Assembly (NCBI GenBank): GCA_002376945.1
Contig: DFOX01000016.1
Location: 1,620-65,619, forward strand
Origin: Patescibacteria group bacterium UBA3530
GTDB taxonomy: Bacteria > Patescibacteriota > Minisyncoccia > Phycocordibacterales > UBA2100
Length of the DNA stretch: 64,000 nt
Reading direction: 5' to 3'
This document shows positions 567 to 22,752 of this stretch, piece by piece. A program made the translations under genes and the position numbers. Each line of letters begins with the position of its first letter. Within the stretch, counting starts at the first letter, position 1. The notes under the pieces are model-generated. The model ran no database searches and was not told where the DNA came from. It saw nothing but the letters and a program-made list of their open reading frames with translations.

Positions 567-3032
567 CTAGACAACGATATTGATTAGTTTGTTCAAGATG
601 TACACAACACGTTTTGGCTCCCCCACTATCCATCGTGAAAGCTTTTCCTCGGCGCGTACTGCGGATACAACTGTCGGTTCATCAGCATTGGTGGCAACCT
701 CCACACTCCCGCGTTTTTTTCCGTTAATTTGAACCGCAATGGTTACGGTTTCTTTGACAAGCTGTGACTCATTGTATTCTGGCCACGCTGTCAGATGGAT
801 TGAGGTATTTTCAGCAAATGTCTCTCTCCAGATTTCTTCAGATAGGTGTGGTGCAAACGGTGCAAGTATTTGCGTGAACAATTTGAAATCTTCACCTGAG
901 ATGCCATGCTCAGTAGCGACATTTAATAAAATCATCAGCTGTGCAATGGCGGTGTTAAATTTAAAACCCTCAATGTCTTCTCCAACCTTCTTGATTGTCT
1001 TATGAAGTTCTAACACGGTGGCCGGACCACTTTCCGTCGTGGTGTTTTGAGACAATTTCCACACTCTCTCCAAAAACCGCTGAGATCCGACAAGTCCGTC
1101 CGTGCTCCATGCAGTGGTGTTCTCAAACGGGCTCATAAACATTTCATATACACGCATTGCATCTGCCCCGTTGGTTTTTACAATTTCATCAGGATTAATC
1201 ACATTTCCCCATCGTTTGCTCATCTTCCGACCGTCCTCTGCAAGAATGAATCCGAGGAATTCAAGCCGAGTAAATGGCTCCTCAGTACTTACATATCCCA
1301 AATCAAATAGCACCTTGTGCCAGAAACGTGCATAGATAAGGTGTCGCACCGCATGATCTCCTCCAACGTACACATTAACCGGCATCCACTGACGCTCTTT
1401 CTCAGGGTCGATAAAGGCGTCGTTGTTATTGGGGTCGATAAAGCGCAGGTAGTACCACGATGATCCCGCCCACTGCGGCATAGTATTGGTCTCACGCTTT
1501 CCTTCTTTGCCGCATGTAGGACAGGATGTATGCACCCATTCGTCAATATGTGCAAGTGGCGACTCTCCTGTTCCAGTAGGTTCATAGTTTTCAACATCAG
1601 GAAGTGTCACTGGTAATTGATCTTCAGGAACCGGCACCGCGCCGCATGTTTTGCAGTGCACAATTGGAATCGGTTCCCCCCAGTATCGTTGTCGCGAGAA
1701 CACCCAGTCATTGAGACGGTAGGTACTTGCAATTGTACCTCCTACTTTCTCCGTTATGACCTCCTTAGCTTTCTCCGACTCCATACCGTTGAACTCGCCG
1801 GAGTTAATCAAGGTACCGGGATTTGTAGTAATTACCGTGCGTGTATACCAAAGGTTGTTAGCAAGCCAACGCAAGAGTGGTATCGAATCCACTCCCCTCG
1901 CATTGCCGCTGTGCGTGATAACTTTTCGTACCGGAAGCGCAAACTTCCGGGCAAACGCGTAATCTCTCTCATCATGCGCCGGAACTGCCATGATTGCGCC
2001 TGTTCCATAATGTGCGAGTACATAATCTGCGACAAACAAAGGGATTTCCTCTCCATTTGCAGGATTTACCACACTAACACCTCGGAGGAGTACGCCGGTT
2101 TTCTCCTTCGTTTCATCAAGTCGATCCATCTCACTTCTTCTTTGAGATTTCACAACATATTCCTCGACTTCCTCTGTATTTGAGTATGCAAGTTTCTTGA
2201 CAAGTTCATGCTCCGGAGCGAGCACCATGTATGTCACACCAAAGATAGTATCGGGTCGTGTGGTAAAAACCTTGATGCGCTCTTGACTACCCTTGACCGT
2301 AAACTCAATCTCCGACCCTTCACTTTTTCCAATCCAATTTCTCTGTGCTTCTTTAATATGTTCAGGCCATCGATCAAGAAGTGACAAATCATCAAGTAGC
2401 CGGTCCGCATAATCGGTAATGCGAAGCACCCATTGCCTCATGGGTTTTTTCTCAACAATCGAACCACATCGCTCACATGTACCATCGCTCTCCAAATCTT
2501 CATTTGCCAAGCCGGTTTGACACGACGGGCACCAGTTAATGGGTTCATGTGATTCAAAAGCCAATCCTTTCTTAAAGAGTTGCAAGAAAATCCATTGTGT
2601 CCATTTGTAGTATTCAGGATCAGTCGTATTGATTTCCCTGCTCCAATCGTAATTAAAACCAAGATGGCTCAATTGGCGCTTAAAGTTCTGGATATTTTTT
2701 TCAACCGCCACGCGTGGATGGACTCGATTTTTTATTGCAAAGTTTTCAGCAGGTAATCCAAACGCATCCCATCCCATGGGGTGCAGAACTTCAAACCCAC
2801 TCATTTTCTTAAAACGGGAGTAGACGTCGGTCGCTATGTACCCTTTCGGGTGACCAACATGCAACCCCTCTCCTGAGGGATAGGGGAACATATCCAACAC
2901 AAATACTTTCGGTTTTTTCGAGGAATCGTCAGTGGCATAGATATCTTCCGATTCCCACTGCTGCTGCCATTTCTTTTCGACTTTTGTGTGGTCAAAGTTT
3001 TTCATAAAAGTACATAGTAGCACTACCGGCAA
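567..3032 (-). CDS. leuS: Leucyl-tRNA synthetase
   Basis: 821 aa, with class I HIGH-type 'PYPSGEGLHVGHPKGY' and LeuRS-typical N-terminal and editing-domain sequence. Confidence 0.95.
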   Translation of the reverse strand: MPVVLLCTFMKNFDHTKVEKKWQQQWESEDIYATDDSSKKPKVFVLDMFPYPSGEGLHVGHPKGYIATDVYSRFKKMSGFEVLHPMGWDAFGLPAENFAIKNRVHPRVAVEKNIQNFKRQLSHLGFNYDWSREINTTDPEYYKWTQWIFLQLFKKGLAFESHEPINWCPSCQTGLANEDLESDGTCERCGSIVEKKPMRQWVLRITDYADRLLDDLSLLDRWPEHIKEAQRNWIGKSEGSEIEFTVKGSQERIKVFTTRPDTIFGVTYMVLAPEHELVKKLAYSNTEEVEEYVVKSQRRSEMDRLDETKEKTGVLLRGVSVVNPANGEEIPLFVADYVLAHYGTGAIMAVPAHDERDYAFARKFALPVRKVITHSGNARGVDSIPLLRWLANNLWYTRTVITTNPGTLINSGEFNGMESEKAKEVITEKVGGTIASTYRLNDWVFSRQRYWGEPIPIVHCKTCGAVPVPEDQLPVTLPDVENYEPTGTGESPLAHIDEWVHTSCPTCGKEGKRETNTMPQWAGSSWYYLRFIDPNNNDAFIDPEKERQWMPVNVYVGGDHAVRHLIYARFWHKVLFDLGYVSTEEPFTRLEFLGFILAEDGRKMSKRWGNVINPDEIVKTNGADAMRVYEMFMSPFENTTAWSTDGLVGSQRFLERVWKLSQNTTTESGPATVLELHKTIKKVGEDIEGFKFNTAIAQLMILLNVATEHGISGEDFKLFTQILAPFAPHLSEEIWRETFAENTSIHLTAWPEYNESQLVKETVTIAVQINGKKRGSVEVATNADEPTVVSAVRAEEKLSRWIVGEPKRVVYILNKLINIVV

Positions 3033-3053
3033 TGCTCATACAAGAAATCCATA

Positions 3054-4034
3054 CTAAAACCGTAACCTCACCGGATCCTTTGGATATGGAGGTACCCGCT
3101 CTGGATCTATTTCTCTCTCAAAACACGTACGCCCCGCATTATGCTCCCAGGATGCTGCGGTTTTTGCAAATTCTCGTACCTGCCAATCATCCGAGTTGCG
3201 AGCGTCACTGCCGAGCTCTGGAAGTGGCAATCCGAAAGTCGCACATAGCTCAAATGTAAGTGGACCAGTTACGGCATATTCATAATCTTCCCGTGTTTCC
3301 GGATCGGTTGGGATATACGCACCAACAAGCGGATCTCTTAGATCGTCGATGGTGTCCGGAAGGCGTTTGGTGTTTCGATAATATTCGGTGATCTGTGATT
3401 GTATGCTTGAAAGATCACTGATTCGCTGATCATCGTATCGGAGAATGCGCTGCGTTCGGGGAGATCCGATGATAAAGAATGCGGCGATGATCGATACTAA
3501 GACGATTAACGAAACTACTTTCTCAATACTCTTGGATAGCTTTTCCCGTTGCTCCCAAACCCCGCGTACGTCTTGCAGGTAGTAGTAGAAAACTCCTCCG
3601 AATACAATAAGCACCGTGAGCACTTTGAGCAGGAATGATGCGGTCAACTCTTCTCCACCTAAGAAGGTGTTAATCAAAACAATCATATCAACAATGAGTG
3701 CAACCGCGGAACCAAATATGGTAAGTACCAAAAGCCATCGGCGCACCCATAGATCTTTTTTTTCAGGAAACATCCTAATCTCCCGTTGAAGCATGCGAGT
3801 GAGTACAATATATATGGGAAAAAGAACGATTAAACTGGCGATTGCGAATCGTATTCCGTCTGAGTACGGATCGTATCCCACAATGGCGTTGCCAAAGAGT
3901 CGTTCAATATATTCAAATGAGAGTATAATGAAGCTCCCGACTGAAAAATAGAGTGCAACTACGGCACCGGTCCATAGAAAGAAGTCTTTTGGTGCTACCT
4001 TCATAATATGTGTATTATGCAATAATACTCTCAT
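3054..4034 (-). CDS. Multi-pass membrane protein of unknown function with a C-terminal soluble domain
   Basis: 326 aa with several hydrophobic segments ('VVALYFSVGSFIILSF', 'LLVLTIFGSAVALIV') and a hydrophilic C-terminal part. No recognisable catalytic motif. Confidence 0.55.
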   Translation of the reverse strand: MRVLLHNTHIMKVAPKDFFLWTGAVVALYFSVGSFIILSFEYIERLFGNAIVGYDPYSDGIRFAIASLIVLFPIYIVLTRMLQREIRMFPEKKDLWVRRWLLVLTIFGSAVALIVDMIVLINTFLGGEELTASFLLKVLTVLIVFGGVFYYYLQDVRGVWEQREKLSKSIEKVVSLIVLVSIIAAFFIIGSPRTQRILRYDDQRISDLSSIQSQITEYYRNTKRLPDTIDDLRDPLVGAYIPTDPETREDYEYAVTGPLTFELCATFGLPLPELGSDARNSDDWQVREFAKTAASWEHNAGRTCFEREIDPERVPPYPKDPVRLRF

Positions 4035-4066
4035 CCTACATTAGTTGTGTGATGAGCGGAAGTCGC

Positions 4067-5167
4067 TTACGAGTGCCTAAACTCCATAACATCTCCATCT
4101 TGCACGATATAGTCCTTCCCTTCGGTACGAACTTTTCCTTGTTCCTTGGCTTTTGACCACGTGCCAGCTGCAACAAGTTTCTCCCAATGAATGGTTTCAG
4201 CTCGAATGAACTTTTTCATAAAATCAGTATGAATGACTCCTGCTGCCACCGGCGCAGTGCTCCCATCAACAATCGTCCATGCACGCGTTTCCTTCTCTCC
4301 CGTTGTAAAGTACGAAATGAGCCCGAGGAGGGCGTACCCTGTTTTGATCATTTCATTCACACCACTTTCGATAACACCGAGCTCTCGTCGAAATTCGTGT
4401 GATTCGTCTCCTGAAATATCTTTAAGCTCGTCCTCAACTCCCGCATCAACCTCCACCCAATATGCTCCAGCGTCTTCCAAAAAACGCTTAAGTGCATCCC
4501 ATCGTATATCACCGTGTTCATGAATATTGTATGCGGAACTTTTCTTGTTCAAGACGTACATACATGGCTTCATCGTAAGGAGGTGAAGTCCTCCTACGAG
4601 TTCCAACTCTTTTTCATCAAGTCGCGCAACACGAGCGAGTTTTCCCGCCTCAAGTATTGGAAGAATTTTTTTGAGTGCTCCTTGCAGTACTACTGCGTCA
4701 TTACTTCCTGAACGAACTTCCTTTTCGATACTTCCCAAACGCTTCATGACCGTCTGTATATCGGCCAAAATTAACTCAAGATTAATGATGTCAATATCAT
4801 GAGCGGGATCAACCGCACCGTTTACATGAATAACGTCTTCATCATCAAACACACGTACCACTTGTGCAATCGCATCCACTTCACGAATTGTTGCAAGAAA
4901 TTGATTTCCCAAACCTTCTCCCCGAGAAGCTCCTTTCACGAGACCTGCAATATCAACAAACTCAACGATTGCAGGAATCACTTTTTTGGAATGTGACAAC
5001 GCGGCGAGCTGTGTAAGTCGAGCGTCAGGCACTGCAACCACACCAATGGAGGGATCAATGGTACAAAAAGGATAGTTCTCAGTTTGGACCGATCCCTTGG
5101 TAAGTGCATTAAAAAGCGTCGATTTCCCGACGTTTGGTAATCCGACAATACCAATTGAGAGTGTCAT
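4067..5167 (-). CDS. ychF: Ribosome-binding ATPase YchF (Obg-like GTPase family)
   Basis: Carries the 'IGIVGLPNVGKSTLFNALT' P-loop and a C-terminal TGS-like domain. The likely true start is the internal ATG (MTLSIG) at 5167, not the ORF-track start at 5254. Confidence 0.9.
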   Translation of the reverse strand: MTLSIGIVGLPNVGKSTLFNALTKGSVQTENYPFCTIDPSIGVVAVPDARLTQLAALSHSKKVIPAIVEFVDIAGLVKGASRGEGLGNQFLATIREVDAIAQVVRVFDDEDVIHVNGAVDPAHDIDIINLELILADIQTVMKRLGSIEKEVRSGSNDAVVLQGALKKILPILEAGKLARVARLDEKELELVGGLHLLTMKPCMYVLNKKSSAYNIHEHGDIRWDALKRFLEDAGAYWVEVDAGVEDELKDISGDESHEFRRELGVIESGVNEMIKTGYALLGLISYFTTGEKETRAWTIVDGSTAPVAAGVIHTDFMKKFIRAETIHWEKLVAAGTWSKAKEQGKVRTEGKDYIVQDGDVMEFRHS

Positions 5168-5214
5168 AATGGTGTATGTTATACCGCATTTACTTGAGAG
5201 TGCAACACAAAATG

Positions 5215-5235
5215 AAAAACCCCTGCCGGAGCAGG
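5215..5235 (-). terminator. Rho-independent terminator
   Basis: Stem CCTGC/GCAGG with loop TCCG, followed by a T-run on the minus strand (seen as 'aaaaac' on the plus strand at 5215..5220). Confidence 0.5.
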
Positions 5236-5380
5236 AATTCTTCAGTGGTGCCATTTTGTTCCGAAGAACGAAACGAGCACCATGGAATCAAGCTCCGGAG
5301 AGCTAGACTCCATGGTGGCCATTTCGAGTCAAAGACCTGAAAAAGTCACCAGTACGGCAATCAGCAAGCTGACTACCGTT
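5216..5380 (-). ncRNA. Candidate structured leader or small RNA between the promoter and an intrinsic terminator, upstream of ychF
   Basis: Five predicted hairpins, including CCAUGGA..AGCUC-UCCG-GAGCU..UCCAUGG and GGUGC..GUUC-UUCG-GAAC..GCACC. It ends with CCUGC-UCCG-GCAGG followed by UUUUU. No ORF. Confidence 0.35.
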
Positions 5381-5385
5381 TCTGT

Positions 5386-5413
5386 AAGATAGCAAATGCG
5401 AAAAAAATGTCAA
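5386..5413 (-). promoter_or_regulatory. Sigma70-like promoter on the minus strand
   Basis: -35 TTGACA (5413..5408), a 16-nt spacer, and -10 TATCTT (5391..5386). Confidence 0.45.
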
Positions 5414-5455
5414 ACACCTTACAGAGTTATGGGATAAATATAGATATGTGTCAAA

Positions 5456-5716
5456 TTATCGCATCAATTGTGCCAATTCATTTCGATACTTTTTACTGAC
5501 CTCCATCATCGCATTCATCTGATCTTTTCCACCCTTTACCAACTCTTGTGTTTCTTTGGCGATTTTCATAAAGAGCTCGGGATCCTTTTCCACCATGGCG
5601 GCGAGCATGTCTGCTTGGTCTTTTGGCATATTCTTAAGCTGGGATGCCATCAGCTTCTTCAACATAAATTTCTTAAACATATGCGTGCATTGTATACCAG
5701 GAGTGACAAGGTGCAA
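5456..5716 (-). CDS. Small K/E/M-rich helical protein, unknown function
   Basis: 86-aa ORF with coding-like composition and no recognisable family. It is followed by an orphan promoter. Confidence 0.4.
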   Translation of the reverse strand: MHLVTPGIQCTHMFKKFMLKKLMASQLKNMPKDQADMLAAMVEKDPELFMKIAKETQELVKGGKDQMNAMMEVSKKYRNELAQLMR

Positions 5717-5740
5717 AACTATTGACTTGTAAGTATTCTA

Positions 5741-7354
5741 ATGGTAGAAATTGGCATGCATATATTTTCAAAAACCCGTCGTTTCGTGCGACGATATTGG
5801 AACACACCAACAAAAATTGCGCTTGTGGTACTTTTGGCATTTCTACTATTGGTCACTTTGCGTGTAATCATTACACGAGAAGCTGTCACTGATGCCGCCC
5901 CTGCTGTGCGCTCGGTAGTGGTGCTTCCCGCTGGAGTAAGTACTCAAAGTCGAGCTGGTATCGAAATAAGTGGAGAAGTTATGGCAACAACTCAAGGTGA
6001 TTTACGATCAAACAGTACCGGCATTGTTACCAATGTATATCAATCAGTATCAGATAACGTGGCGCGCGGGACAATTATCGCGACGATGGAAAATGCGGGA
6101 GAACGGGCTGGTGTTGCTCAGGCAAAGGCGGGAGTAGCTCAGGCGCAGGCAAACCTTAGCAAAGTATCGGGAGGAACACGCGAGGAGCAACTCGCGGTAC
6201 TTGCCGCTTCCACGCAAAGAGCACAGAGTGCGTACGAAGAGGCAGAGATTGGATTGCAAAATGCATTGATCAATGCGTACATTACCACCAACACGGCGTA
6301 CGCCGGCGGTGTGGATGCCATGTTTGACGATGCAGACAAAGCTAGTCCAAAGCTCAAGGTGACGACCGCCAATGGTAGTGACGCACTTGCTGCTGAGCAT
6401 GCACGGTTTCTCATTCAGGCAACCATCGAGCGACACGAGGAACTTTCACGACAGATACAGTTCATTTCCGGTGAGAATTTACTTCAAGAAGCTCGAAAAG
6501 TTGAAAAGGAAAATTTAACTATGAAGGCGGGGCTTGATGCGCTCATACGTGCCCTTAACGGAGCACCGCAGGACGTGAGTGCATACTTGACGATTGCAAA
6601 CACAGCACGTGCAAATGTGGTGCAAGCACGAACATCACTTGTATCAGCAAGAGGCGGATGGAGTGCGGCCGAGAGTGCACGTACCATAGCGCAAGAAAAC
6701 GAGGCGCTCGGAATTTCAGGTGCTCAATCAGAAGATATTGTAGTGGCAAAAGCGCAGCTTGCCGCAGCTCAAGCAACACTCTCACAAGCGTACGCACGAC
6801 TTGAAGATACCTATATACGAGCGCCCGTTGCCGGAACACTCACTCGCCTTTCCATTAAACCCGGTGATTTTGTGTCTGCGTATCAAGACGTTGGATTAGT
6901 TGCCAGTACGGGGTCGTATGAAATTGAGACATTTGTTTCTGTTCCAACTGCTCGGCAAATTGCAGTCGGTACCCCGGTACGCATTGAAGGACAGTATGAT
7001 GGAGTTGTCACCAGTATCGCCGAGAGTATTGATCCTGCAAAACGACAAATTGCAGTGAAAATTGCATTTACTGACACTGCAGTGGATGTACCTACCGGTA
7101 CCCGAGTGTCAGTTATCTTTATCGAAAACATAGATGGTACCGATGTCACTGTCCCGGTTTCAGCACTCAAATTAATTGGTGATGAGGCCTTCGTGTTTAC
7201 GATAGAAAACGGCCTATTGGTGGCGCTTCCTGTGGTATTGGGAGAGATTGCTCAAAATACAGTCGAAATTGTTTCAGGCATTAGTCGCACCACCATGATT
7301 GTAATCGATGCACGAGGATTTAATGAGGGAGATGCTGTGATAATTGCGCCATAG
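5741..7354 (+). CDS. Efflux periplasmic adaptor subunit (HlyD membrane-fusion-protein family)
   Basis: N-terminal TM anchor, an Ala/Gln-rich coiled-coil middle region, and a C-terminal 'RAPVAGTLTRLSIKPGDFV' beta-barrel motif. Its stop overlaps the RND pump gene start (7354/7357). Confidence 0.8.
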   Translation: MVEIGMHIFSKTRRFVRRYWNTPTKIALVVLLAFLLLVTLRVIITREAVTDAAPAVRSVVVLPAGVSTQSRAGIEISGEVMATTQGDLRSNSTGIVTNVYQSVSDNVARGTIIATMENAGERAGVAQAKAGVAQAQANLSKVSGGTREEQLAVLAASTQRAQSAYEEAEIGLQNALINAYITTNTAYAGGVDAMFDDADKASPKLKVTTANGSDALAAEHARFLIQATIERHEELSRQIQFISGENLLQEARKVEKENLTMKAGLDALIRALNGAPQDVSAYLTIANTARANVVQARTSLVSARGGWSAAESARTIAQENEALGISGAQSEDIVVAKAQLAAAQATLSQAYARLEDTYIRAPVAGTLTRLSIKPGDFVSAYQDVGLVASTGSYEIETFVSVPTARQIAVGTPVRIEGQYDGVVTSIAESIDPAKRQIAVKIAFTDTAVDVPTGTRVSVIFIENIDGTDVTVPVSALKLIGDEAFVFTIENGLLVALPVVLGEIAQNTVEIVSGISRTTMIVIDARGFNEGDAVIIAP

Positions 7355-7356
7355 TT

Positions 7357-10300
7357 ATGTTTAATGTTTGGAGTTTTTTTACGCAGCGAAGTCGCTTCGC
7401 CGTGATAGTGATAGCCGCCATTCTCTTTTTGGGCATAGGTGCTATTTACAATATTCCAAAAGAATCTGCTCCGGAAGTTGATGTTCCCATCGCAATTGTA
7501 AGTACGGTACTTCCCGGTGCGTCTCCGGAAGATGTGGAGCAACTGGTGACGAATGTACTTGAGGAGCCGCTAAAAAATACGTTGAGTGATGTGCGGAATA
7601 TTACCTCAACGTCTGGAAATGGCATATCAACAATCACGGTAGAGTTTGAGGCGAATGCAAATTTACCAAAATCCATGCGCAGTGTTCGTGATGAGGTTGA
7701 TGCAGCGAAAATTGATTTGCCCGATGATGCCCTTGATCCACGGATTATCGAAATTGATTTTGGTGGTGATCCGGTAGTTACCGGAACACTTTCGGCAGAC
7801 ATTCCAAATGAACTTCTGTATACGATTGCGGAAGATACTGCAGATGTACTTGAAACAATTCCCGGTGTTTCGTCCGTGGTTTTAAGCGGAGTGACGGGTA
7901 AAGAGGTGCAGGTTGTTATTGACACGCAGGCCCTCCAACAGTATGGGATCACCGTCGCTCACGTAACCGGAGCGATTGCCGGAGCGAATACATCACTTCC
8001 TGTTGGCAATATTGAAATAGATGGTGCTGAGTTCCCCGTTCGCCTTGCAGGAGATATCGAAAGTGCAGAGCACGTGGCCGATACACCAATACTGTCACTT
8101 GATGGTGCACCCGTGTACGTTCGCGATGTGGCAAATGTGTTTGTTGGCCGTGAGGAACCATCATCACTCAGCAGAACCAGTTTGAACAATCAACCATCTA
8201 ATCCATCAGTGTCATTTGAGGTGTTTAAGAGTTCGAGTGCAAACATCACTACTGTGAGTACTGCGGTTCAGGAAAAGCTGCAAAATATGCAAAAGGAACC
8301 CGGGGGACTTCTTGAGAATATTGCGGTTCACAACATGTATGACAGTGGAGAAGAACTGAAGAGCGACTTAACCACACTGACAAGAAGCGGCATGTACACC
8401 GTCTTGTTGGTAACACTCGTCTTAATGATTGCCGTTGGGTGGCGAGAATCCATAATCGCTGCAATATCAATTCCACTCTCATTCCTCACTGCGTTTATTG
8501 GTCTTGCATACTCAGGAAATTCACTCAACTTTGTGAGTCTTTTCGCCCTCATTCTCTCTATCGGTATTATTGTGGATTCAACCATTGTCATTGTTGAAGG
8601 CATTAACAAGAAACTGCACGAAATGCGACGCCATCAAGGAGAGACGGTACAGGAAGTGCAGAGTGTAAAGTCACACGCTGCACTTGATGTTGTGAGAGAA
8701 TTCCACGTGCCACTTACTGCGGGAACAATGACTACCATCGCGGTATTTGCTCCGTTATTTATTGTCTCGGGAATCACCGGTGAGTTTATCAAAAGTATTC
8801 CGTTTACCATCATCTTCGTACTCGCCGCTTCCCTTTTGGTGGCACTGGGCTTCGTACCCATGATTGCTACGAAACTATTACGCCGCGGAAGTAATGCAGA
8901 AAATGCATTTGTGAAGAAAAGGGAGAATGTAACAGCGCGCTTTGAGGCGTTGTATCGAATCTATCTCACTAAATTGCTCTCCAGTCGTGAGGCGGAGAAT
9001 ATCCTCTTCATCACGCTCATTGCCCTCTTTGTGCTGACACTCGCTCTTCCTGTAGTTGGTGCGGTACGTGTCGTCTTTTTTGAAGACAGCAATTCCGATT
9101 ACATGATTCTTGAGACTTCGCTACCAATTGGGTCAGTGCTGTCGGAAACCGACCTAGAAATTCGAAAAGCTGAAGAGGTGCTCTACACTATTCCCGAGGC
9201 CACTTCATTTGTGACTACAGTTGGCAGTGGAAGTGCCTTTACTAATCCATTTGAGGGAAGTCCTACCGGTAGTGCGCGCACCGCAAACATTTTTGTAAAT
9301 CTTGATCCAAAACGAAAGCGAAATACCACTGAAATTCTTGACGATGTTCGTCAGAAACTTGAGGTGATTAAGACATCTGATATTCGCGCAGATCAATTAA
9401 GTGACGGTCCGCCGTCACTTGCGCCGATTACCATAACCATCTATGGAGATAAGTTTGTGGATCTTGAAATTGCTGCGGCAAAAGTTGAAACCGTTCTTAA
9501 GCGTATTCCCGGTACTGCGGATATTACTTCAAGCGTGAAGGATGCCACCAGTGAATTTGTATTTTCGATAAATCGCGATGAAGTAGTGGCACTGGGTGCT
9601 GATATACGTAGTATCGCGGGGAGTTTGCGTGTTGCGTTGTATGGTGAAGATATTACCGAGATTAAACAATTGGGAGACGATGTCGACATTGTCGCTCGTG
9701 TTGCACTTGATGCTGAAGGAGTGAATCGCCGATACGATACGAATATCACAACACTTGAATCGCTCGCGCGAGTGATGGTACAGACACAAAGCGGGGTCTA
9801 TCCACTTGCAACTTTTATCGAGGTGGCAGTTGAACCAAGTCGAGCGTCCATTGAACATGACAACGGCACACGCATTGCCACTGTTTCAAGTCGAATCGGT
9901 GCAGGTGGAAATGCTTTGGTAATTACACAGCAGGCACAAAAATTACTAGCATCTGAAACACTTCCCGAGGGCGTTCGACTTTCCTTTGGTGGTGAGAGCG
10001 AAGATATTGATCAGTCATTCCGGGATATGTTTACCGCACTGATTATCGGCGTCATCAGTATGTTTGCCATTTTGGTACTGCAATTCAATTCGTTTCGTTT
10101 TGCCACCTACGTTCTTATGATCGTACCACTGTCACTCATCGGAGTATTTCTCGGACTGATGATTACGGGAAACCCACTCTCATTTCCATCCATTATGGGA
10201 TTCATCGCCCTTTCAGGAATTGTGGTGAACAATTCAATTATCTTAATTGATACGATTAATACTGAAAGACGCACGTATGCAAACTCAAAAACGATGCACG

Positions 10301-10509
10301 AAATCGTGGTCAATGCAGCTGCGTCTCGTTTGCGACCGGTGCTACTCACCGCACTCACTACGGTAATTGGTGTCATTCCACTACTTTTTGCAGCCGCCAT
10401 TTGGGTACCGCTTGCGTATGCATTGATGTTTGGTCTTGCCTTTGCAACTATTATTACACTAGTGCTCGTTCCATCCATTTATGCACGGTGGCCGGGTAAG
10501 GATATTTAG
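7357..10509 (+). CDS. RND family efflux transporter permease (AcrB/AcrD/AcrF-like)
   Basis: 1050 aa with a 12-TM architecture and two large periplasmic loops, typical of RND pumps. Confidence 0.9.
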   Translation: MFNVWSFFTQRSRFAVIVIAAILFLGIGAIYNIPKESAPEVDVPIAIVSTVLPGASPEDVEQLVTNVLEEPLKNTLSDVRNITSTSGNGISTITVEFEANANLPKSMRSVRDEVDAAKIDLPDDALDPRIIEIDFGGDPVVTGTLSADIPNELLYTIAEDTADVLETIPGVSSVVLSGVTGKEVQVVIDTQALQQYGITVAHVTGAIAGANTSLPVGNIEIDGAEFPVRLAGDIESAEHVADTPILSLDGAPVYVRDVANVFVGREEPSSLSRTSLNNQPSNPSVSFEVFKSSSANITTVSTAVQEKLQNMQKEPGGLLENIAVHNMYDSGEELKSDLTTLTRSGMYTVLLVTLVLMIAVGWRESIIAAISIPLSFLTAFIGLAYSGNSLNFVSLFALILSIGIIVDSTIVIVEGINKKLHEMRRHQGETVQEVQSVKSHAALDVVREFHVPLTAGTMTTIAVFAPLFIVSGITGEFIKSIPFTIIFVLAASLLVALGFVPMIATKLLRRGSNAENAFVKKRENVTARFEALYRIYLTKLLSSREAENILFITLIALFVLTLALPVVGAVRVVFFEDSNSDYMILETSLPIGSVLSETDLEIRKAEEVLYTIPEATSFVTTVGSGSAFTNPFEGSPTGSARTANIFVNLDPKRKRNTTEILDDVRQKLEVIKTSDIRADQLSDGPPSLAPITITIYGDKFVDLEIAAAKVETVLKRIPGTADITSSVKDATSEFVFSINRDEVVALGADIRSIAGSLRVALYGEDITEIKQLGDDVDIVARVALDAEGVNRRYDTNITTLESLARVMVQTQSGVYPLATFIEVAVEPSRASIEHDNGTRIATVSSRIGAGGNALVITQQAQKLLASETLPEGVRLSFGGESEDIDQSFRDMFTALIIGVISMFAILVLQFNSFRFATYVLMIVPLSLIGVFLGLMITGNPLSFPSIMGFIALSGIVVNNSIILIDTINTERRTYANSKTMHEIVVNAAASRLRPVLLTALTTVIGVIPLLFAAAIWVPLAYALMFGLAFATIITLVLVPSIYARWPGKDI

Positions 10510-20169: not shown

Positions 20170-22752
20170 CTACCGCAATACTTTAGCCAGATACTTTCCG
20201 GTGTGGGAACTTTTATTCCCCACAATTTCCTCAGGAGTACCTTTTGCTATCAATCTACCGCCTTCATCACCACCTTCTGGTCCAAAATCAAGAATATAGT
20301 CTGAAGATTTAATGATATCCATGTTATGCTCAATCACCACTACACTATTTCCTCGTCGCACAAGCTCCTGAAGAATTTCAATAAGCTTTGCAACATCATC
20401 ATAATGGAGACCAACCGTTGGCTCATCCAAAAGATACATGGTTTTTGTTGTTCCAGGACGGTACAGTTCAGCGGCAATTTTGACTCGCTGTGCTTCTCCT
20501 CCTGAAAGCGTCGTCGCACTCTGACCCAGCGTTAAGTAGCCCAGACCAACATCATTGAGCGCTTTAAGCCGATCATAAATGCCTGCAATATCTTCAAAGA
20601 AAGTGAGTGCTTCTTCTATCGTCATGCATAGCACCTCGTAGATATTTTTTTCCTTGTACTTAACCTCTAGTGTTTCCTTTGTAAACCGTTTTCCCAAACA
20701 CAGATCACACGTCACATGCACTGTCGGAAGAAAATGCATCTCGACTGCAACCACTCCATTTCCCTGGCACGCTTCACATCTTCCTCCTTTCACATTAAAA
20801 CTAAATCTCCCCGGTTTCCACCCACGCGCACGTGCTTGGGTTGTTTGTGCAAATAGGTCGCGGATATGCGTAAACGCACCTGTGTAGGTTGCTGGGTTGG
20901 AGCGAGGAGTTCTTCCAATTGGTGATTGATCAATGAGAATTGATCGGGAGAGATATTCGGTTCCGGAAAAACGCGTGCAATTATATACCTTTGCGCTCCT
21001 GTACTTCCGATCAAAACGAGCTCGAAGATTCTCGTGTAGAATTTCGTACATAAAAGTGGATTTCCCGGACCCTGACACACCCGTGATGGTTACCAATCGT
21101 CCAAGTGGTACATCCACACTTAAATTCTTGATACTGAACTTTCGTCCCCCGCGCACCAAAAGCGCACCACGGTTTGAATTACGTCGCTTCTCGGGAATAT
21201 CAATCGATCGCTCACCTCGTAGATAGGATAGTGTTCGTGAACCACCCTTGGCAGTCTTTGCCGAAAGCAATGCTTCCAACCACCCGGCGGCAACGACTTC
21301 ACCCCCATGAACTCCGGCCCCTGGTCCGATATCAATCAGATAATCCGCCGCACGAATCGTATCCTCATCATGCTCAACCACCACAATGGTGTTACCAAGG
21401 TCTCGCAGATTTGTGAGCGTACGTATCAGTCGATCATTGTCTCGTTGATGCAATCCGATTGTGGGCTCATCGAGTACATACATAGCCCCGACAAGGCCAC
21501 TACCTAATTGGCTGGCTAATCGTATTCGTTGCGCTTCTCCTCCTGAAAGTGTGTTTGCACGCCGATCCAGTTCAAGATATCCGATTCCAACGTCGAGCAT
21601 GAATTGGAGGCGATCGGTGATTTCTTTGATAATGACTTTTGAAATTTCTTCCTCAGTTTTGGTAAGTTCAAGTGCGATAAAAAAATCTTGAGCATCTTCA
21701 ATTGAAAGTGAGGCGAGTTCAACTATATTTCTTCGGTGCTTCCCTTCACCCAAGAAAACATTGAGAGCCTCCCTTCGTAAACGTGCTCCTTTGCACACGT
21801 GGCAGGCATCGTCAATAAAAAATGCTTTTGTTCCAAGACCCTTGCATTCCTGACATGCGCCGTAGGGTGAGTTAAAGCTAAATAAGCGCGGTTCTATTTC
21901 CGGAAATGAAAATCCATCATAGGGGCACATAAATTTTGCGGAAATGATGTGCTCTTCTCCCGTTGGATCGACAATCTTAATGAGTCCGTCAGATTCGATC
22001 AGTGCTCTTTCTATTGCCTCCGCAACACGTTCTTGCGTGCCCTTCACATCCTCTCGAAATTCACTTACGTATATTTCATCAACCAGCACATCGATATCGT
22101 GCTTTTTGGTCTTTGAAAGAGTAACTCTCTCCCGAAGGCGTATATCATTGCCATCAACACGCACTCGCTCATACCCCTTCCCCAGGAAATCATAGAGTAG
22201 CTGGTAATATTCGCCCTTTCTTCCAACCACTACCGGGGCATAGAGTTGAATTTTTGCATTTGTCACATCCACACCCAGTATTTTCTGTGAGTCGGTGGTG
22301 GTTTCTGCAATTATTTTCGTAATGGTTTCCAAAATTTCTTCATTTGAGAGTCGGCGTATCGGACGGTCACACTTTAAACAGTGGGGCTTTCCAAGTCGTG
22401 CGTAGAGTACACGCAAATAGTCATATATTTCAGTGATGGTTGCGACGGTTGATCGGGGATTATTCGAACGAGACTTTTGATCAATCGAAATAGCAGGAGA
22501 AAGCCCGGTGATTTCATCGACATCAGGTTTCTGCATTTGTCGAAGAAACTGACGTGCGTATGCGGAGAGCGATTCAACATAACGTCGTTGTCCTTCGGCA
22601 AAAATAGTATCAAAAGCGAGTGATGATTTGCCAGATCCGGAGAGGCCGGAAATTACCACCATCTTGTTCCGTGGCAGTGTAACCGTAATGTTCTTTAAGT
22701 TGTGCGTTCGCGCACCCTTTATGATAATTTCATCTTCCATACATGTATCCAC
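20170..22752 (-). CDS. uvrA: Excinuclease ABC subunit A
   Basis: 860 aa with two ABC ATPase modules ('[16 protein letters not shown]' and '[12 protein letters not shown]') and Zn-finger CxxC motifs. Confidence 0.95.

What the first reader, a model, noticed from the sequence alone, without database searches (positions are those of the whole stretch)
5215..5413. Orphan promoter, ~165-nt highly structured transcript and intrinsic terminator immediately upstream of ychF
On the minus strand there is a near-consensus promoter (TTGACA, 16-nt spacer, TATCTT). It is followed by about 165 nt with no ORF that fold into five hairpins: two with UCCG loops, one with a UUCG tetraloop, and a long CCAUGGA...UCCAUGG stem. 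The region ends in a textbook terminator (CCUGC-UCCG-GCAGG followed by UUUUU) about 50 nt before the ychF start codon. Promoter, structured leader, terminator, then gene is the architecture of a riboswitch or attenuator. It could also be an independent small RNA. I could not match it to any RNA family I know, including TPP, SAM, T-box, SRP, 6S or fluoride.
Basis: seen in the sequence. Interest (0 to 1): 0.6.

Follow-up and report, generated by a model that had tools for sequence, protein, structure and literature searches.

The report
Unclassified modular hairpin small RNA gene
The flagged stretch is a real, conserved gene for a roughly 170-nucleotide non-coding RNA built from tandem hairpins, found only in one clade of marine Patescibacteria and matching no catalogued RNA family; it is a free-standing small RNA, not a switch controlling the neighbouring ychF gene.

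Summary
In detail: promoter, five hairpins and terminator lie on the minus strand at 5413..5213. The fold is far more stable than shuffled sequence (z = -10.4).

Eleven distinct homologues were recovered from related marine Patescibacteria (YchF 69-83% identical). All keep a TTGACN-16/17-TANNNT promoter and an intrinsic terminator. Stems H1, H3 and the terminator covary strongly: 27 pairs have double changes, against 13.4±2.3 in shuffles. G·U pairs outnumber A·C 84:12, so selection acts on the RNA of this strand. No reading frame is conserved and Rfam 15 gives no credible match.

The riboswitch/attenuator reading is not supported:
- In 4 of 11 genomes other genes lie between the RNA and ychF.
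- A more distant relative keeps the synteny without the RNA.
- The terminator has no conserved competitor.
- ychF appears to have its own promoter.

The RNA is an array of paralogous 12-bp modules (GGUG-N4-UUUC…GAAR-UGNN-CACC). These can pair locally or across modules, giving two near-isoenergetic folds. My inferred function is a stable trans-acting RNA that binds a protein at several sites. It is a new, clade-restricted RNA family of moderate interest.

The parts
5408..5413 (-). -35 hexamer TTGACA of the RNA's own promoter
   Evidence: Found by the promoter scan. TTGAC is invariant in all 12 promoter copies from 11 homologues, with a 16-17 nt spacer.
5386..5394 (-). Extended -10 element: TG (5394..5393), one base, then TATCTT (5391..5386)
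   Evidence: flags 'TG_before_second: yes'. TANNNT is conserved in 12/12 copies and the TG in most of them.
5354..5379 (-). H1: 11-bp hairpin ACGGUAGUCAG-CUUG-CUGAUUGCCGU. It lies at or next to the predicted 5' end; the start site near 5379-5385 is inferred, not mapped.
   Evidence: Predicted in the MFE fold. 8 of its 11 pairs show double compensatory changes and 98% of cells are paired. L175 lacks it, so it is dispensable.
5313..5351 (-). H2, module 1: UGGUGACUUUUUC [AGGUC-UUU-GACUC] GAAAUGGCCACCA. It is a 12-bp stem with conserved A·C and U·U mismatches, capped by a small variable hairpin.
   Evidence: The sequence is nearly invariant. Pair U/C:A/G covaries (U-A to C-G in L166 and L179). This is the only match to the module pattern in the 64-kb window, against 0 expected.
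5283..5312 (-). H3: UGGAGUCUAGCUC-UCCG-GAGCUUGAUUCCA. It is a variable stem flanked by the CCAUGG junctions.
   Evidence: 9 of 12 pairs have double compensatory changes. The basal A-U changes to G-C in L163 and L175.
5246..5282 (-). H4, module 2: UGGUGCUCGUUUC [GUUC-UUCG-GAAC] AAAAUGGCACCA. It is a paralogue of H2.
   Evidence: A direct repeat links 5250-5267 and 5318-5335 at 72% identity. The apical hairpin covaries.
5269..5326 (-). Alternative long helix (fold B): the 3' strand of H2 pairs with the 5' strand of H4 and stacks on H3. This is a 27-nt inverted repeat.
   Evidence: RNAalifold chose this helix and 97.6% of its cells are paired. The inverted repeat is reported. Constrained energies for the two folds differ by 0.2-5.3 kcal/mol in 9 of 10 sequences.
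5213..5244 (-). Intrinsic terminator UGAAGAAUUCCUGC-UCCG-GCAGGGGUUUUUCA: an A-tract/U-tract-extended hairpin followed by a U run.
   Evidence: Found by the terminator scan. 5 pairs have double changes and the stem has four different sequences across homologues. Mean pair probability is at least 0.97.
5178..5205 (-). Candidate promoter of ychF itself: TTGCAC-16-TATAAC, 10 nt before the ATG, with no Shine-Dalgarno sequence. It is context, not part of the RNA.
   Evidence: Read from the sequence. -10-like hexamers lie 5-10 nt before the ATG in the relatives. This is an inference.
4067..5167 (-). ychF (366 aa), the downstream neighbour
   Evidence: Translated. Pfam families MMR_HSR1 and YchF-GTPase_C.
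5456..5680 (-). Conserved small ORF (74 aa, no family) just upstream. It has no terminator of its own before the RNA.
   Evidence: It is syntenic in all relatives and in L001.

Best explanation
Window 5413..5213 (minus strand) is a free-standing gene for a stable non-coding RNA of about 170 nt.

**Transcription (inferred from sequence).** The gene has a strong sigma-70-type promoter with a consensus -35 and an extended -10. It ends at an unconditional intrinsic terminator.

**Architecture (shown).** The RNA is an array of short hairpins that are paralogues of one another. Two of them, H2 and H4, are 12-bp modules with the near-invariant sequence 5'-GGUG-N4-UUUC ... GAAR-UGNN-CACC-3' and conserved internal mismatches. 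The other hairpins vary freely but keep their pairing. Module number varies between species, from no H1 in L175 to four or five modules in L180.

**Two folds (shown by prediction).** Every 3' strand of a module can pair with the 5' strand before it or the one after it. The RNA can therefore form a string of local hairpins, or one long imperfect duplex closed by the outermost strands. The two folds are nearly equal in predicted energy.

**Function (inferred).** I think the RNA most likely acts in trans as a multivalent binding platform (a sponge or scaffold) for a protein that recognises the repeated module stems. I think this for three reasons:
- Conservation sits in double-stranded sequence, not in loops.
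- All loops are closed UNCG or CUUG tetraloops.
- No conserved single-stranded seed exists.

The fold switch could gate that binding, or gate cleavage by RNase III. The RNA does not regulate ychF in cis.

**Confidence.** About 0.8 that it is an independent, selected structured RNA gene. About 0.35 for the protein-binding mechanism. The single figure of 0.55 given for this explanation is a compromise between the two.
For: **Anatomy.** Promoter and terminator are present and the fold has z = -10.4.

**Conservation.** Eleven distinct homologues were found in relatives with YchF 69-83% identical. Each has its own promoter and terminator.

**Covariation.** In the 11-sequence alignment 95% of cells are paired. 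27 pairs have double changes, against 13.4 ± 2.3 in shuffles (0/500) and 2-8 in slid controls. The MAFFT alignment gives similar results.

**Strand.** There are 84 G·U cells against 12 A·C cells. The covariance model scores 193.9 bits on this strand and 42.3 on the other.

**Non-coding.** Candidate frames differ between homologues. The only recurrent frame has a stop at codon 5 in L166, L170 and L172.

**Independence from ychF.**
- Intervening genes in L163, L164, L172/L173 and L180.
- Absent from syntenic L001.
- Terminator pair probability at least 0.97, with no conserved antiterminator.
- Promoter-like hexamers directly before the ychF ATG.

**Modularity.**
- L180 has CACCAYGGTGWTCRTT three times at 38/43-nt spacing.
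- The window's H2 and H4 form a direct repeat (sequence).
- The module pattern is found only inside the element.

**Two folds.** Per-sequence MFE structures alternate between the folds. Constrained energies differ by 0.2-5.3 kcal/mol in 9 of 10 sequences.
Against: - No expression data were available. The transcription start, the 3' end and the abundance are inferred from sequence only.
- No partner protein is identified, and no other copy of the module exists in the 64-kb window. There is therefore no evidence for cellular RNAs that the supposed protein would otherwise bind.
- The H2 and H4 closing helices are invariant, so covariation can neither prove them nor separate fold A from fold B.
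- The near-equal energies of the two folds could be a by-product of hairpin duplication rather than a selected switch.
- In most genomes ychF is still the next gene, so some read-through contribution to ychF expression cannot be excluded.
- Only 11 closely related sequences were available.
Confidence: 0.55

Rival explanations
1. It is a cis-acting leader of ychF: a riboswitch, or a protein- or temperature-sensing attenuator. A ligand or factor would shift the upstream fold and decide whether the terminator stops transcription before ychF.
For: - Promoter, structured RNA, terminator and then ychF is the layout in the window and in 6 of the 10 other homologues.
- Two near-isoenergetic alternative folds exist upstream of the terminator.
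Against: - The fold switch does not involve the terminator. Its stem forms with probability of at least 0.97, and its 5' arm has no conserved competitor.
- The terminator stem sequence changes between species while all upstream junction sequences stay invariant, so no antiterminator pairing is being maintained.
- Other genes or terminators separate the RNA from ychF in L163, L164, L172/L173 and L180.
- L001 keeps ychF and the small ORF without the RNA.
- ychF has promoter-like hexamers of its own.
- No riboswitch model in Rfam matches.
Confidence: 0.07
2. It is a classical base-pairing small RNA that regulates mRNAs in trans through a short seed. The hairpins would serve only to stabilise it.
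For: It has its own promoter and a Rho-independent terminator with a U tail, a 5'-terminal hairpin, and a size typical of such RNAs.
Against: - The conserved nucleotides lie almost entirely inside stems.
- The loops are closed UNCG or CUUG tetraloops, which are poor pairing surfaces.
- The linkers are 0-2 nt long.
- No conserved accessible seed is visible.
- Hfq and ProQ are generally lacking in this phylum (my own background knowledge, not tested here).
Confidence: 0.18
3. There is no RNA function of its own. The hairpin array would be the terminator and 3'-end stabiliser of the small upstream ORF (REP/BIME-like), or a DNA-level palindrome or operator array (CACCATGGTG repeats) bound by a dimeric DNA-binding protein.
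For: - The small ORF has no terminator of its own in the window, so its transcripts should end at 5213.
- The 10-bp palindrome CACCAYGGTG recurs at about 40-bp spacing in L180.
- The -35 region resembles the terminator tail (81% over 16 nt). This hints that the element arose by duplication of a terminator.
Against: - An internal consensus promoter is conserved in 12/12 copies.
- G·U pairs outnumber A·C pairs 84:12, and the two strands differ by about 150 bits in the covariance-model search. Selection therefore acts on the RNA of one strand, not on duplex DNA.
- In L164 and L163 the element sits about 0.3-0.9 kb from the small ORF, and in L164 a bidirectional terminator lies in between.
- Near-invariant stem sequence is not needed for a mere stabiliser.
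Confidence: 0.1
4. It is a highly divergent member of a housekeeping RNA class. The leading candidate is 6S RNA, a long irregular hairpin that binds RNA polymerase. The other candidate is SRP RNA.
For: - It is about 170 nt long, has a strong promoter, and in fold B forms one long imperfect hairpin.
- No 6S or SRP gene is detected elsewhere in the 64-kb window.
Against: - The Rfam 6S and SRP models give no hit at E ≤ 10, either in the element or in eight homologous loci.
- Fold B has only small internal loops and no large central bubble.
- The 5' and 3' ends sit in separate hairpins (H1 and the terminator) instead of forming a closing stem.
- The H3 apex is variable and lacks the SRP domain IV motifs.
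- The element is absent from the syntenic locus of a relative at 67% YchF identity. Most of each genome was not searchable.
Confidence: 0.05
5. It is a processed guide-RNA array of the TIGR-Tas (box C/D-like) kind, or a type III antitoxin-like repeat RNA.
For: - It is a tandem array of hairpin units (about 38-43 nt in L180) followed by a terminator.
- Each unit starts with UG and ends with CCA, the letters called box D and box C in TIGR repeats (PMC12045711).
- TIGR systems are reported in parasitic bacteria (PMC12045711).
Against: - There are no unpaired 8-12-nt spacers. The equivalent segments are complementary to each other and conserved between species, not variable.
- There is no 36-nt periodicity (one search finds no tandem repeat).
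- No Nop-domain (Tas) or ToxN-like gene lies in the flanks fetched at any locus. The neighbours are an RND pump, the small ORF, YchF, DUF5671 and LeuRS.
Confidence: 0.03

Closest known systems
CsrB/RsmZ-type protein-sequestering small RNAs
   Same: Both are independently transcribed and terminator-ended RNAs made of several repeated hairpin units. Unit number varies between species. This is the closest analogy for how the RNA probably works.
   Different: The repeated unit here is a 12-bp stem with conserved duplex sequence (GGUG...UUUC / GAAR...CACC), not a GGA motif in a loop. The only related Rfam hit (rsmX, 24.2 bits against a gathering score of 56) is a chance-level match to the terminator end. 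The partner protein is unknown.
6S RNA (Rfam RF00013)
   Same: The size is similar. Both have a strong promoter and are highly structured. Fold B is a single long irregular hairpin.
   Different: There is no covariance-model match, no large central bubble, and no closing stem formed by the two ends. Distribution is limited to one clade.
Terminator-based riboswitches and attenuators
   Same: In most genomes the layout is promoter, structured RNA, intrinsic terminator, gene. Alternative pairings exist upstream of the terminator.
   Different: The alternative pairings do not compete with the terminator. The downstream gene is not fixed. No aptamer model matches.
TIGR stem-loop arrays (TIGR-Tas; PMC12045711)
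   Same: Both are tandem hairpin units ending in a terminator. The units are bounded by UG...CCA. TIGR systems are reported from parasitic bacteria and their phages.
   Different: There are no variable unpaired spacers, no 36-nt unit and no adjacent Nop-domain protein. The units are conserved across species and evolve by compensatory change.
REP/BIME-type intergenic hairpin arrays
   Same: Both are clusters of stable hairpins downstream of a gene. Such clusters can terminate and stabilise the upstream mRNA.
   Different: This is a single-copy, orthologous locus with its own conserved promoter. It is not repeated elsewhere in the window, and selection acts on one RNA strand.

Membership tests
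Independent bacterial small non-coding RNA gene | Own promoter | tested here: met
   The window has TTGACA-16-TATCTT with an extended TG. TTGACN-16/17-TANNNT is present in 12/12 copies from 11 homologues. This rests on sequence only; the start site is not mapped.
Independent bacterial small non-coding RNA gene | Own intrinsic terminator | tested here: met
   Found by the terminator scan. It is conserved with covarying stems and a mean pair probability of at least 0.97.
Independent bacterial small non-coding RNA gene | Conserved secondary structure supported by compensatory changes on one strand | tested here: met
   27 pairs have double changes, against 13.4 ± 2.3 in shuffles. G·U to A·C is 84:12. 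The model scores 193.9 against 42.3 bits on the two strands.
Independent bacterial small non-coding RNA gene | No conserved reading frame | tested here: met
   ORFs differ in frame and length. The recurrent frame is interrupted at codon 5 in 3 homologues.
Independent bacterial small non-coding RNA gene | A discrete transcript is detected | not testable with these tools
   No RNA-seq or metatranscriptome mapping was available.
Riboswitch / transcription attenuator of ychF | Constant linkage to the regulated downstream gene | tested here: not met
   Other genes intervene in L163, L164, L172/L173 and L180. The RNA is absent from syntenic L001.
Riboswitch / transcription attenuator of ychF | Terminator competes with a conserved antiterminator | tested here: not met
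   The 5' arm of the terminator is unpaired or inconsistently paired in nascent-transcript folds, and the terminator dominates the ensemble. The terminator sequence varies while the upstream junctions are invariant.
Riboswitch / transcription attenuator of ychF | Match to a known aptamer class | tested here: not met
   Rfam 15 at gathering threshold finds only 4 tRNAs. E-value mode gives only sub-threshold chance hits, such as istR at 22.9 bits against a gathering score of 45.
6S RNA | Match to the RF00013 covariance model | tested here: not met
   No 6S hit at E ≤ 10 in the element or in 8 homologous loci.
6S RNA | Closing stem formed by the 5' and 3' ends, large central bubble, terminal stem | tested here: not met
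   The ends form separate hairpins (H1 and the terminator). Fold B has only small internal loops.
6S RNA | Binds RNA polymerase holoenzyme and templates product RNA | not testable with these tools
   This needs biochemistry.
SRP RNA (4.5S) | Domain IV motifs and a match to the Rfam SRP models | tested here: not met
   No SRP hit. The apex of the long stem is variable and carries UNCG loops.
CsrB/Rsm-type sponge RNA | Multiple GGA motifs exposed in hairpin loops | tested here: not met
   The loops are UNCG or CUUG tetraloops. GGA occurs only as the closing pair plus stem. rsmX scores 24.2 bits against a gathering score of 56.
CsrB/Rsm-type sponge RNA | Repeated binding units, variable in number, in a free-standing RNA | tested here: met
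   Module number varies: H1 is absent in L175, the window has two sequence-conserved modules (H2, H4) plus H1 and H3, and L180 has 4-5 modules. This shows a resemblance in design only, not membership.
TIGR-Tas guide array | Units of about 36 nt with two unpaired 8-12-nt variable spacers between box C and box D | tested here: not met
   No tandem periodicity. The candidate spacer segments pair with each other and are conserved across species. Definition taken from PMC12045711.
TIGR-Tas guide array | Adjacent Nop-domain (Tas) protein | tested here: not met
   The precomputed Pfam families of neighbouring genes at 11 loci show none. The rest of each genome was not searched.

The most novel reading that the evidence does not exclude
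The RNA could be a new class of regulatory RNA specific to Patescibacteria. Its paralogous stem modules would form a designed two-state device.

- In the hairpin-array state it would present several identical duplex sites to a lineage-specific RNA-binding protein and titrate it.
- In the extended state it would become a 27-60-bp duplex that RNase III can destroy or process.

The RNA would then couple a cellular signal, such as temperature, helicase activity or protein load, to release of that protein. That would make it one of the first mechanistically defined trans-acting regulatory RNAs in the candidate phyla radiation.
Probability: 0.2. Interest if true: 0.7.

Novelty: new variant of a known kind. 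Interest (0 to 1): 0.5.

Why it matters
As far as my three literature searches showed, almost nothing is known about regulatory RNAs in Patescibacteria (the candidate phyla radiation). These organisms have tiny genomes, few known global RNA-binding proteins and few cultured representatives.

A strongly promoted, structurally selected RNA that is absent from Rfam gives a concrete entry point:
- It can be modelled, searched for across the phylum and looked for in marine metatranscriptomes.
- It can be synthesised for probing and pull-downs.
- Its modular, two-fold architecture is an unusual and testable design.

It also corrects an annotation trap. The promoter, hairpins, terminator and gene look like a riboswitch, but the element is not tied to ychF. 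Its narrow distribution and unknown function keep its importance moderate for now.

Tried and rejected
- **Rfam 15.** I ran it at gathering threshold on the whole window and in E-value mode on the element and on eight homologous loci. Only tRNAs and chance sub-threshold hits appeared (istR, rnk_pseudo, rsmX, miRNAs). These were mostly driven by single hairpins or the terminator.
- **Genome-collection and JGI metagenome scans with YchF**. These returned only relatives at 67% identity or less. None carries the RNA (nhmmer; cmsearch).
- **Route that worked.** Homologues were found by a protein search followed by exact-protein contig look-ups. One look-up (L177/L178) gave contigs that start too close to ychF to be informative.
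- **IMG/VR pattern scan** for CGAARTGGCCACCRTGG. It gave 38 hits, about the number I estimated for chance. None matches the model.
- **Phage and plasmid BLAST.** No match.
- **Repeat search in the window.** The element is not a dispersed repeat.
- **Tandem Repeats Finder.** Nothing found.
- **Kink-turn / box C-D reading** of CUGGUGA...CUGA, considered by eye. I rejected it because there are no tandem G·A pairs.
- **Anti-Shine-Dalgarno mimicry and tRNA-minihelix readings** of GGUG...CACCA. I dropped these as unsupported.
- **Upstream small ORF.** No Pfam or NCBIfam family.
- **Literature searches** for non-coding RNAs of Patescibacteria, the candidate phyla radiation or Parcubacteria. They found nothing describing this RNA. 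They did surface the TIGR-Tas paper, which I read and rejected as a match.
- **Fold A versus fold B.** Covariation could not separate them because the decisive helices are invariant.
Full report

Yes. On the minus strand the promoter scan finds TTGACA (5413..5408), a 16-nt spacer and TATCTT (5391..5386) preceded by TG. This is the best of five promoter-like sites in 3000..8000. The same scan finds a 14-pair terminator hairpin at 5244..5213 followed by a U run. It ends 46 nt before the ychF start codon at 5167.

The 176 nt between them fold into five consecutive hairpins at -86.6 kcal/mol. Dinucleotide shuffles average -48.8 ± 3.7, so z = -10.4, and none of 200 shuffles folds as well. The loops are CUUG, UUU, UCCG, UUCG and UCCG, so four of the five are extra-stable tetraloops. 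The element is not repeated elsewhere in the 64-kb window.

**2. Related sequences**

Scans of the genome and metagenome collections with YchF gave only relatives at 67% identity or less. In the closest of these, L001, the small ORF that lies upstream of the element in the window is followed by ychF after only 5 nt. The element is therefore missing there, although synteny is kept.

A protein search found closer YchF relatives at 69-83% identity. Fetching their contigs recovered the element in every case where the upstream region was available. These are L163, L164, L166, L167, L170, L172/L173, L175, L176, L179 and L180. With the window that makes 11 distinct sequences, from Tara Oceans and other metagenomes. 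Source names for YchF relatives in the protein search place the lineage among Paceibacteria/Parcubacteria-like Patescibacteria.

A covariance model built from ten of these sequences (R1) finds nothing in about 160 more distant ychF loci. It also finds nothing in 38 viral-collection loci that match a 17-nt core pattern by chance. Phage and plasmid collections give no match.

**3. It is an RNA gene under selection on this strand**

- **Promoter.** All 12 promoter copies keep TTGAC-N at -35, a 16-17-nt spacer and TANNNT at -10. Most also keep the upstream TG.
- **Terminator.** All homologues end in a hairpin with a U tract. The stem has four different sequences across species that still pair.
- **Covariation.** On the MAFFT alignment RNAalifold predicts 59 pairs, 20 of them with compensatory double changes. 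For the five-hairpin structure 92.6% of cells are paired. 22 pairs show double changes, against 11.8 ± 2.0 in shuffles (0/500) and 1-7 in slid controls. With 11 sequences aligned to the model the numbers are 95.0% paired and 27 pairs, against 13.4 ± 2.3. That alignment is fitted to the model and so leans towards it.
- **Where the signal lies.** H1 has 8 of 11 pairs with double changes, H3 has 9 of 12, and the terminator has 5 of 14.
- **Strand.** G·U cells outnumber A·C cells 84 to 12. The model scores 193.9 bits on the minus strand and 42.3 on the plus strand. Selection therefore acts on the transcript of the promoter-to-terminator strand, not on a DNA palindrome.
- **Coding potential.** No reading frame is conserved. 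The one recurrent frame, (A/G)UG-GCC-ACC-AUG..., has a stop at codon 5 in L166, L170 and L172.

**4. Architecture: paralogous modules and two folds**

H2 and H4 are near-invariant in sequence and are paralogues. Each is a 12-bp stem, 5'-GGUG-N4-UUUC ... GAAR-UGNN-CACC-3', with conserved non-canonical positions in the middle. Each is capped by a small variable hairpin. The window shows a direct repeat between 5250-5267 and 5318-5335.

In L180 the RNA is visibly a tandem array. CACCAYGGTGWTCRTT occurs three times at 38- and 43-nt spacing, and four or five modules precede the terminator. The L180 RNA folds with z = -13.7. L175 lacks H1 altogether, because its promoter abuts H2. Module number therefore varies.

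Every 3' strand can pair with the 5' strand before it or with the one after it. Two structures therefore compete:
- **Fold A** is the string of local hairpins.
- **Fold B** pairs the 3' strand of H2 with the 5' strand of H4. This stacks on H3 to give a helix of about 27 bp, and the outer strands close the structure.

Per-sequence minimum-energy structures alternate between the two folds. Constrained energies differ by only 0.2-5.3 kcal/mol, out of about -85, in 9 of 10 sequences, and by 8.8 in L176.

Substitutions are compatible with both folds:
- The three variable positions in the fold B helix always keep pairing (30/30 cells).
- A U-A to C-G double change in L166 and L179 supports the fold A H2 stem.

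The decisive GGUG:CACC helices never vary, so covariation cannot choose between the folds. The near-equal energies may be selected, or may simply follow from hairpin duplication.

**5. It is not a ychF leader**

In the window and 6 of the 10 other homologues ychF is the next gene. In the other four something else intervenes:
- a 49-aa HicB-like ORF in L164;
- a second terminator-like hairpin and a 92-aa ORF in L163;
- a response regulator, plus a DUF1153 gene in L172, in L172/L173;
- two minus-strand ORFs in L180.

The terminator forms with mean pair probability of at least 0.97 in the full-length ensemble in ten of the eleven homologues. The script mislocated it in L180. In folds of the nascent transcript its 5' arm is unpaired or paired inconsistently. 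The A/B switch does not touch the terminator.

Just before the ychF ATG every relative has a -10-like hexamer 5-10 nt upstream and no Shine-Dalgarno sequence. In the window this is TTGCAC-16-TATAAC, then 10 nt, then ATG. This suggests an independent promoter and a leaderless or nearly leaderless ychF mRNA. That last point is an inference from sequence.

**6. Comparison with known families**

Rfam 15 gives only four tRNAs in the window at gathering threshold. In E-value mode the element and eight homologous loci give only inconsistent sub-threshold hits: istR at 22.9 bits against 45, rnk_pseudo, rsmX at 24.2 against 56, and plant or animal miRNA precursors.

- **6S RNA.** No model hit, no large central bubble, and the ends do not form a closing stem.
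- **SRP RNA.** No hit, and the apex is variable.
- **Csr/Rsm sponges.** These are the closest analogy in design, since they have repeated units of variable number in a free-standing RNA. The GGA-in-loop motif is absent here.
- **TIGR-Tas arrays.** I read PMC12045711. They share tandem hairpin units bounded by UG...CCA and a terminal terminator. They require unpaired variable spacers, a unit of about 36 nt and an adjacent Nop-domain protein. None of these is present (and the neighbour tables).
- **Literature.** Three searches found no description of this RNA.

**7. Most likely mechanism**

*Shown:* a conserved gene with promoter and terminator signals; an RNA structure under strand-specific selection; a modular make-up; two near-isoenergetic folds; and no fixed downstream gene.

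*Inferred:* the RNA is stable and probably abundant. The grounds are a consensus -35 with an extended -10, hairpins at both ends, and tetraloop caps. Conservation is concentrated in double-stranded module sequence with fixed mismatches, all loops are closed tetraloops, and there is no conserved single-stranded seed.

The best-fitting mechanism is therefore a trans-acting RNA that offers several copies of one duplex site to a protein. That would make it a sponge or scaffold, with the fold switch possibly gating binding or RNase III cleavage. I put about 0.8 on "independent structured RNA gene" and about 0.35 on this mechanism.

Rivals, in order of my confidence:
- a base-pairing small RNA (0.18);
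- a stabiliser or terminator array of the small ORF, or a DNA-level element (0.10);
- a ychF attenuator (0.07);
- a divergent 6S or SRP RNA (0.05);
- a TIGR-like or antitoxin-like array (0.03).

No second copy of the module exists in the 64 kb available. This neither supports nor excludes cellular targets elsewhere in the genome.

**8. Verdict**

Its favoured riboswitch/attenuator reading is not supported, and its alternative reading of an independent small RNA is supported. The element defines a new RNA family restricted to one clade and without a match in Rfam 15. Its modular, two-fold design is unusual, and the phylum has essentially no characterised regulatory RNAs. The function remains unknown and the distribution is narrow, so interest is moderate (0.5).

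Noticed in passing
window 5456..5680 (-): A conserved 74-aa Met/Lys-rich ORF (MFKKFMLKKL...) with no Pfam or NCBIfam family. It lies upstream of the RNA in every homologue and is directly fused to ychF (5-nt gap) in L001. It has no terminator of its own, so its transcripts should end at the RNA's terminator.
   Followed up: partly
window 5178..5205 (-) and the 90 nt before ychF in L163-L180: ychF has a -10-like hexamer 5-10 nt before its ATG and no Shine-Dalgarno sequence in all relatives. In the window this is TTGCAC-16-TATAAC, then 10 nt, then ATG. This suggests a leaderless or nearly leaderless ychF mRNA from its own promoter.
   Followed up: partly
L164 2325-2474; L172 2886-3925; L163 2073-2351; L180 3697-4905: The gap between the RNA terminator and ychF is a hot spot for gene insertion. 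It holds a HicB-like 49-aa ORF in L164, a Trans_reg_C response regulator plus DUF1153 in L172, a 92-aa ORF that looks membrane-like by eye in L163, and two minus-strand ORFs in L180.
   Followed up: no
L166 4654-, L167 7077-, L176 6203-8992, L179 6260-9013, compared with window 567..3032 (-): The downstream leucyl-tRNA synthetase carries a NUDIX (PF00293) domain insertion (917-1068 aa) in several relatives. In the window (821-aa ORF) and its duplicate contigs L081/L082, no NUDIX is listed on the part of the gene fetched.
   Followed up: no
window 5404..5419 and 5209..5224: The -35 region of the RNA promoter (AGGTGTTTGACATTTT) is 81% identical over 16 nt to the terminator tail (AGGGGTTTTTCATTTT). 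The promoter may have evolved from a duplicated terminator U tract. This fits an origin of the whole array by hairpin duplication.
   Followed up: no
window 5427..5455 (-); L166 about 2231-2260; L163 about 1414-1445: A second promoter-like sequence (TTGACA-17-CATAAC) lies directly after the stop codon of the small ORF. The TTTGACATAT part is conserved in L166 and L163. Its role is unknown.
   Followed up: no
window 5741..10509 (+): A divergently oriented RND efflux pair: a 537-aa HlyD-like membrane-fusion protein and a 1050-aa ACR_tran transporter. It is syntenic in all relatives.
   Followed up: no
window 20485-20553 and 21526-21594: A 69-nt direct repeat (71% identity) spaced 1041 nt apart inside one 860-aa ORF (20170..22752, -). 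It probably reflects an internal domain duplication.
   Followed up: no
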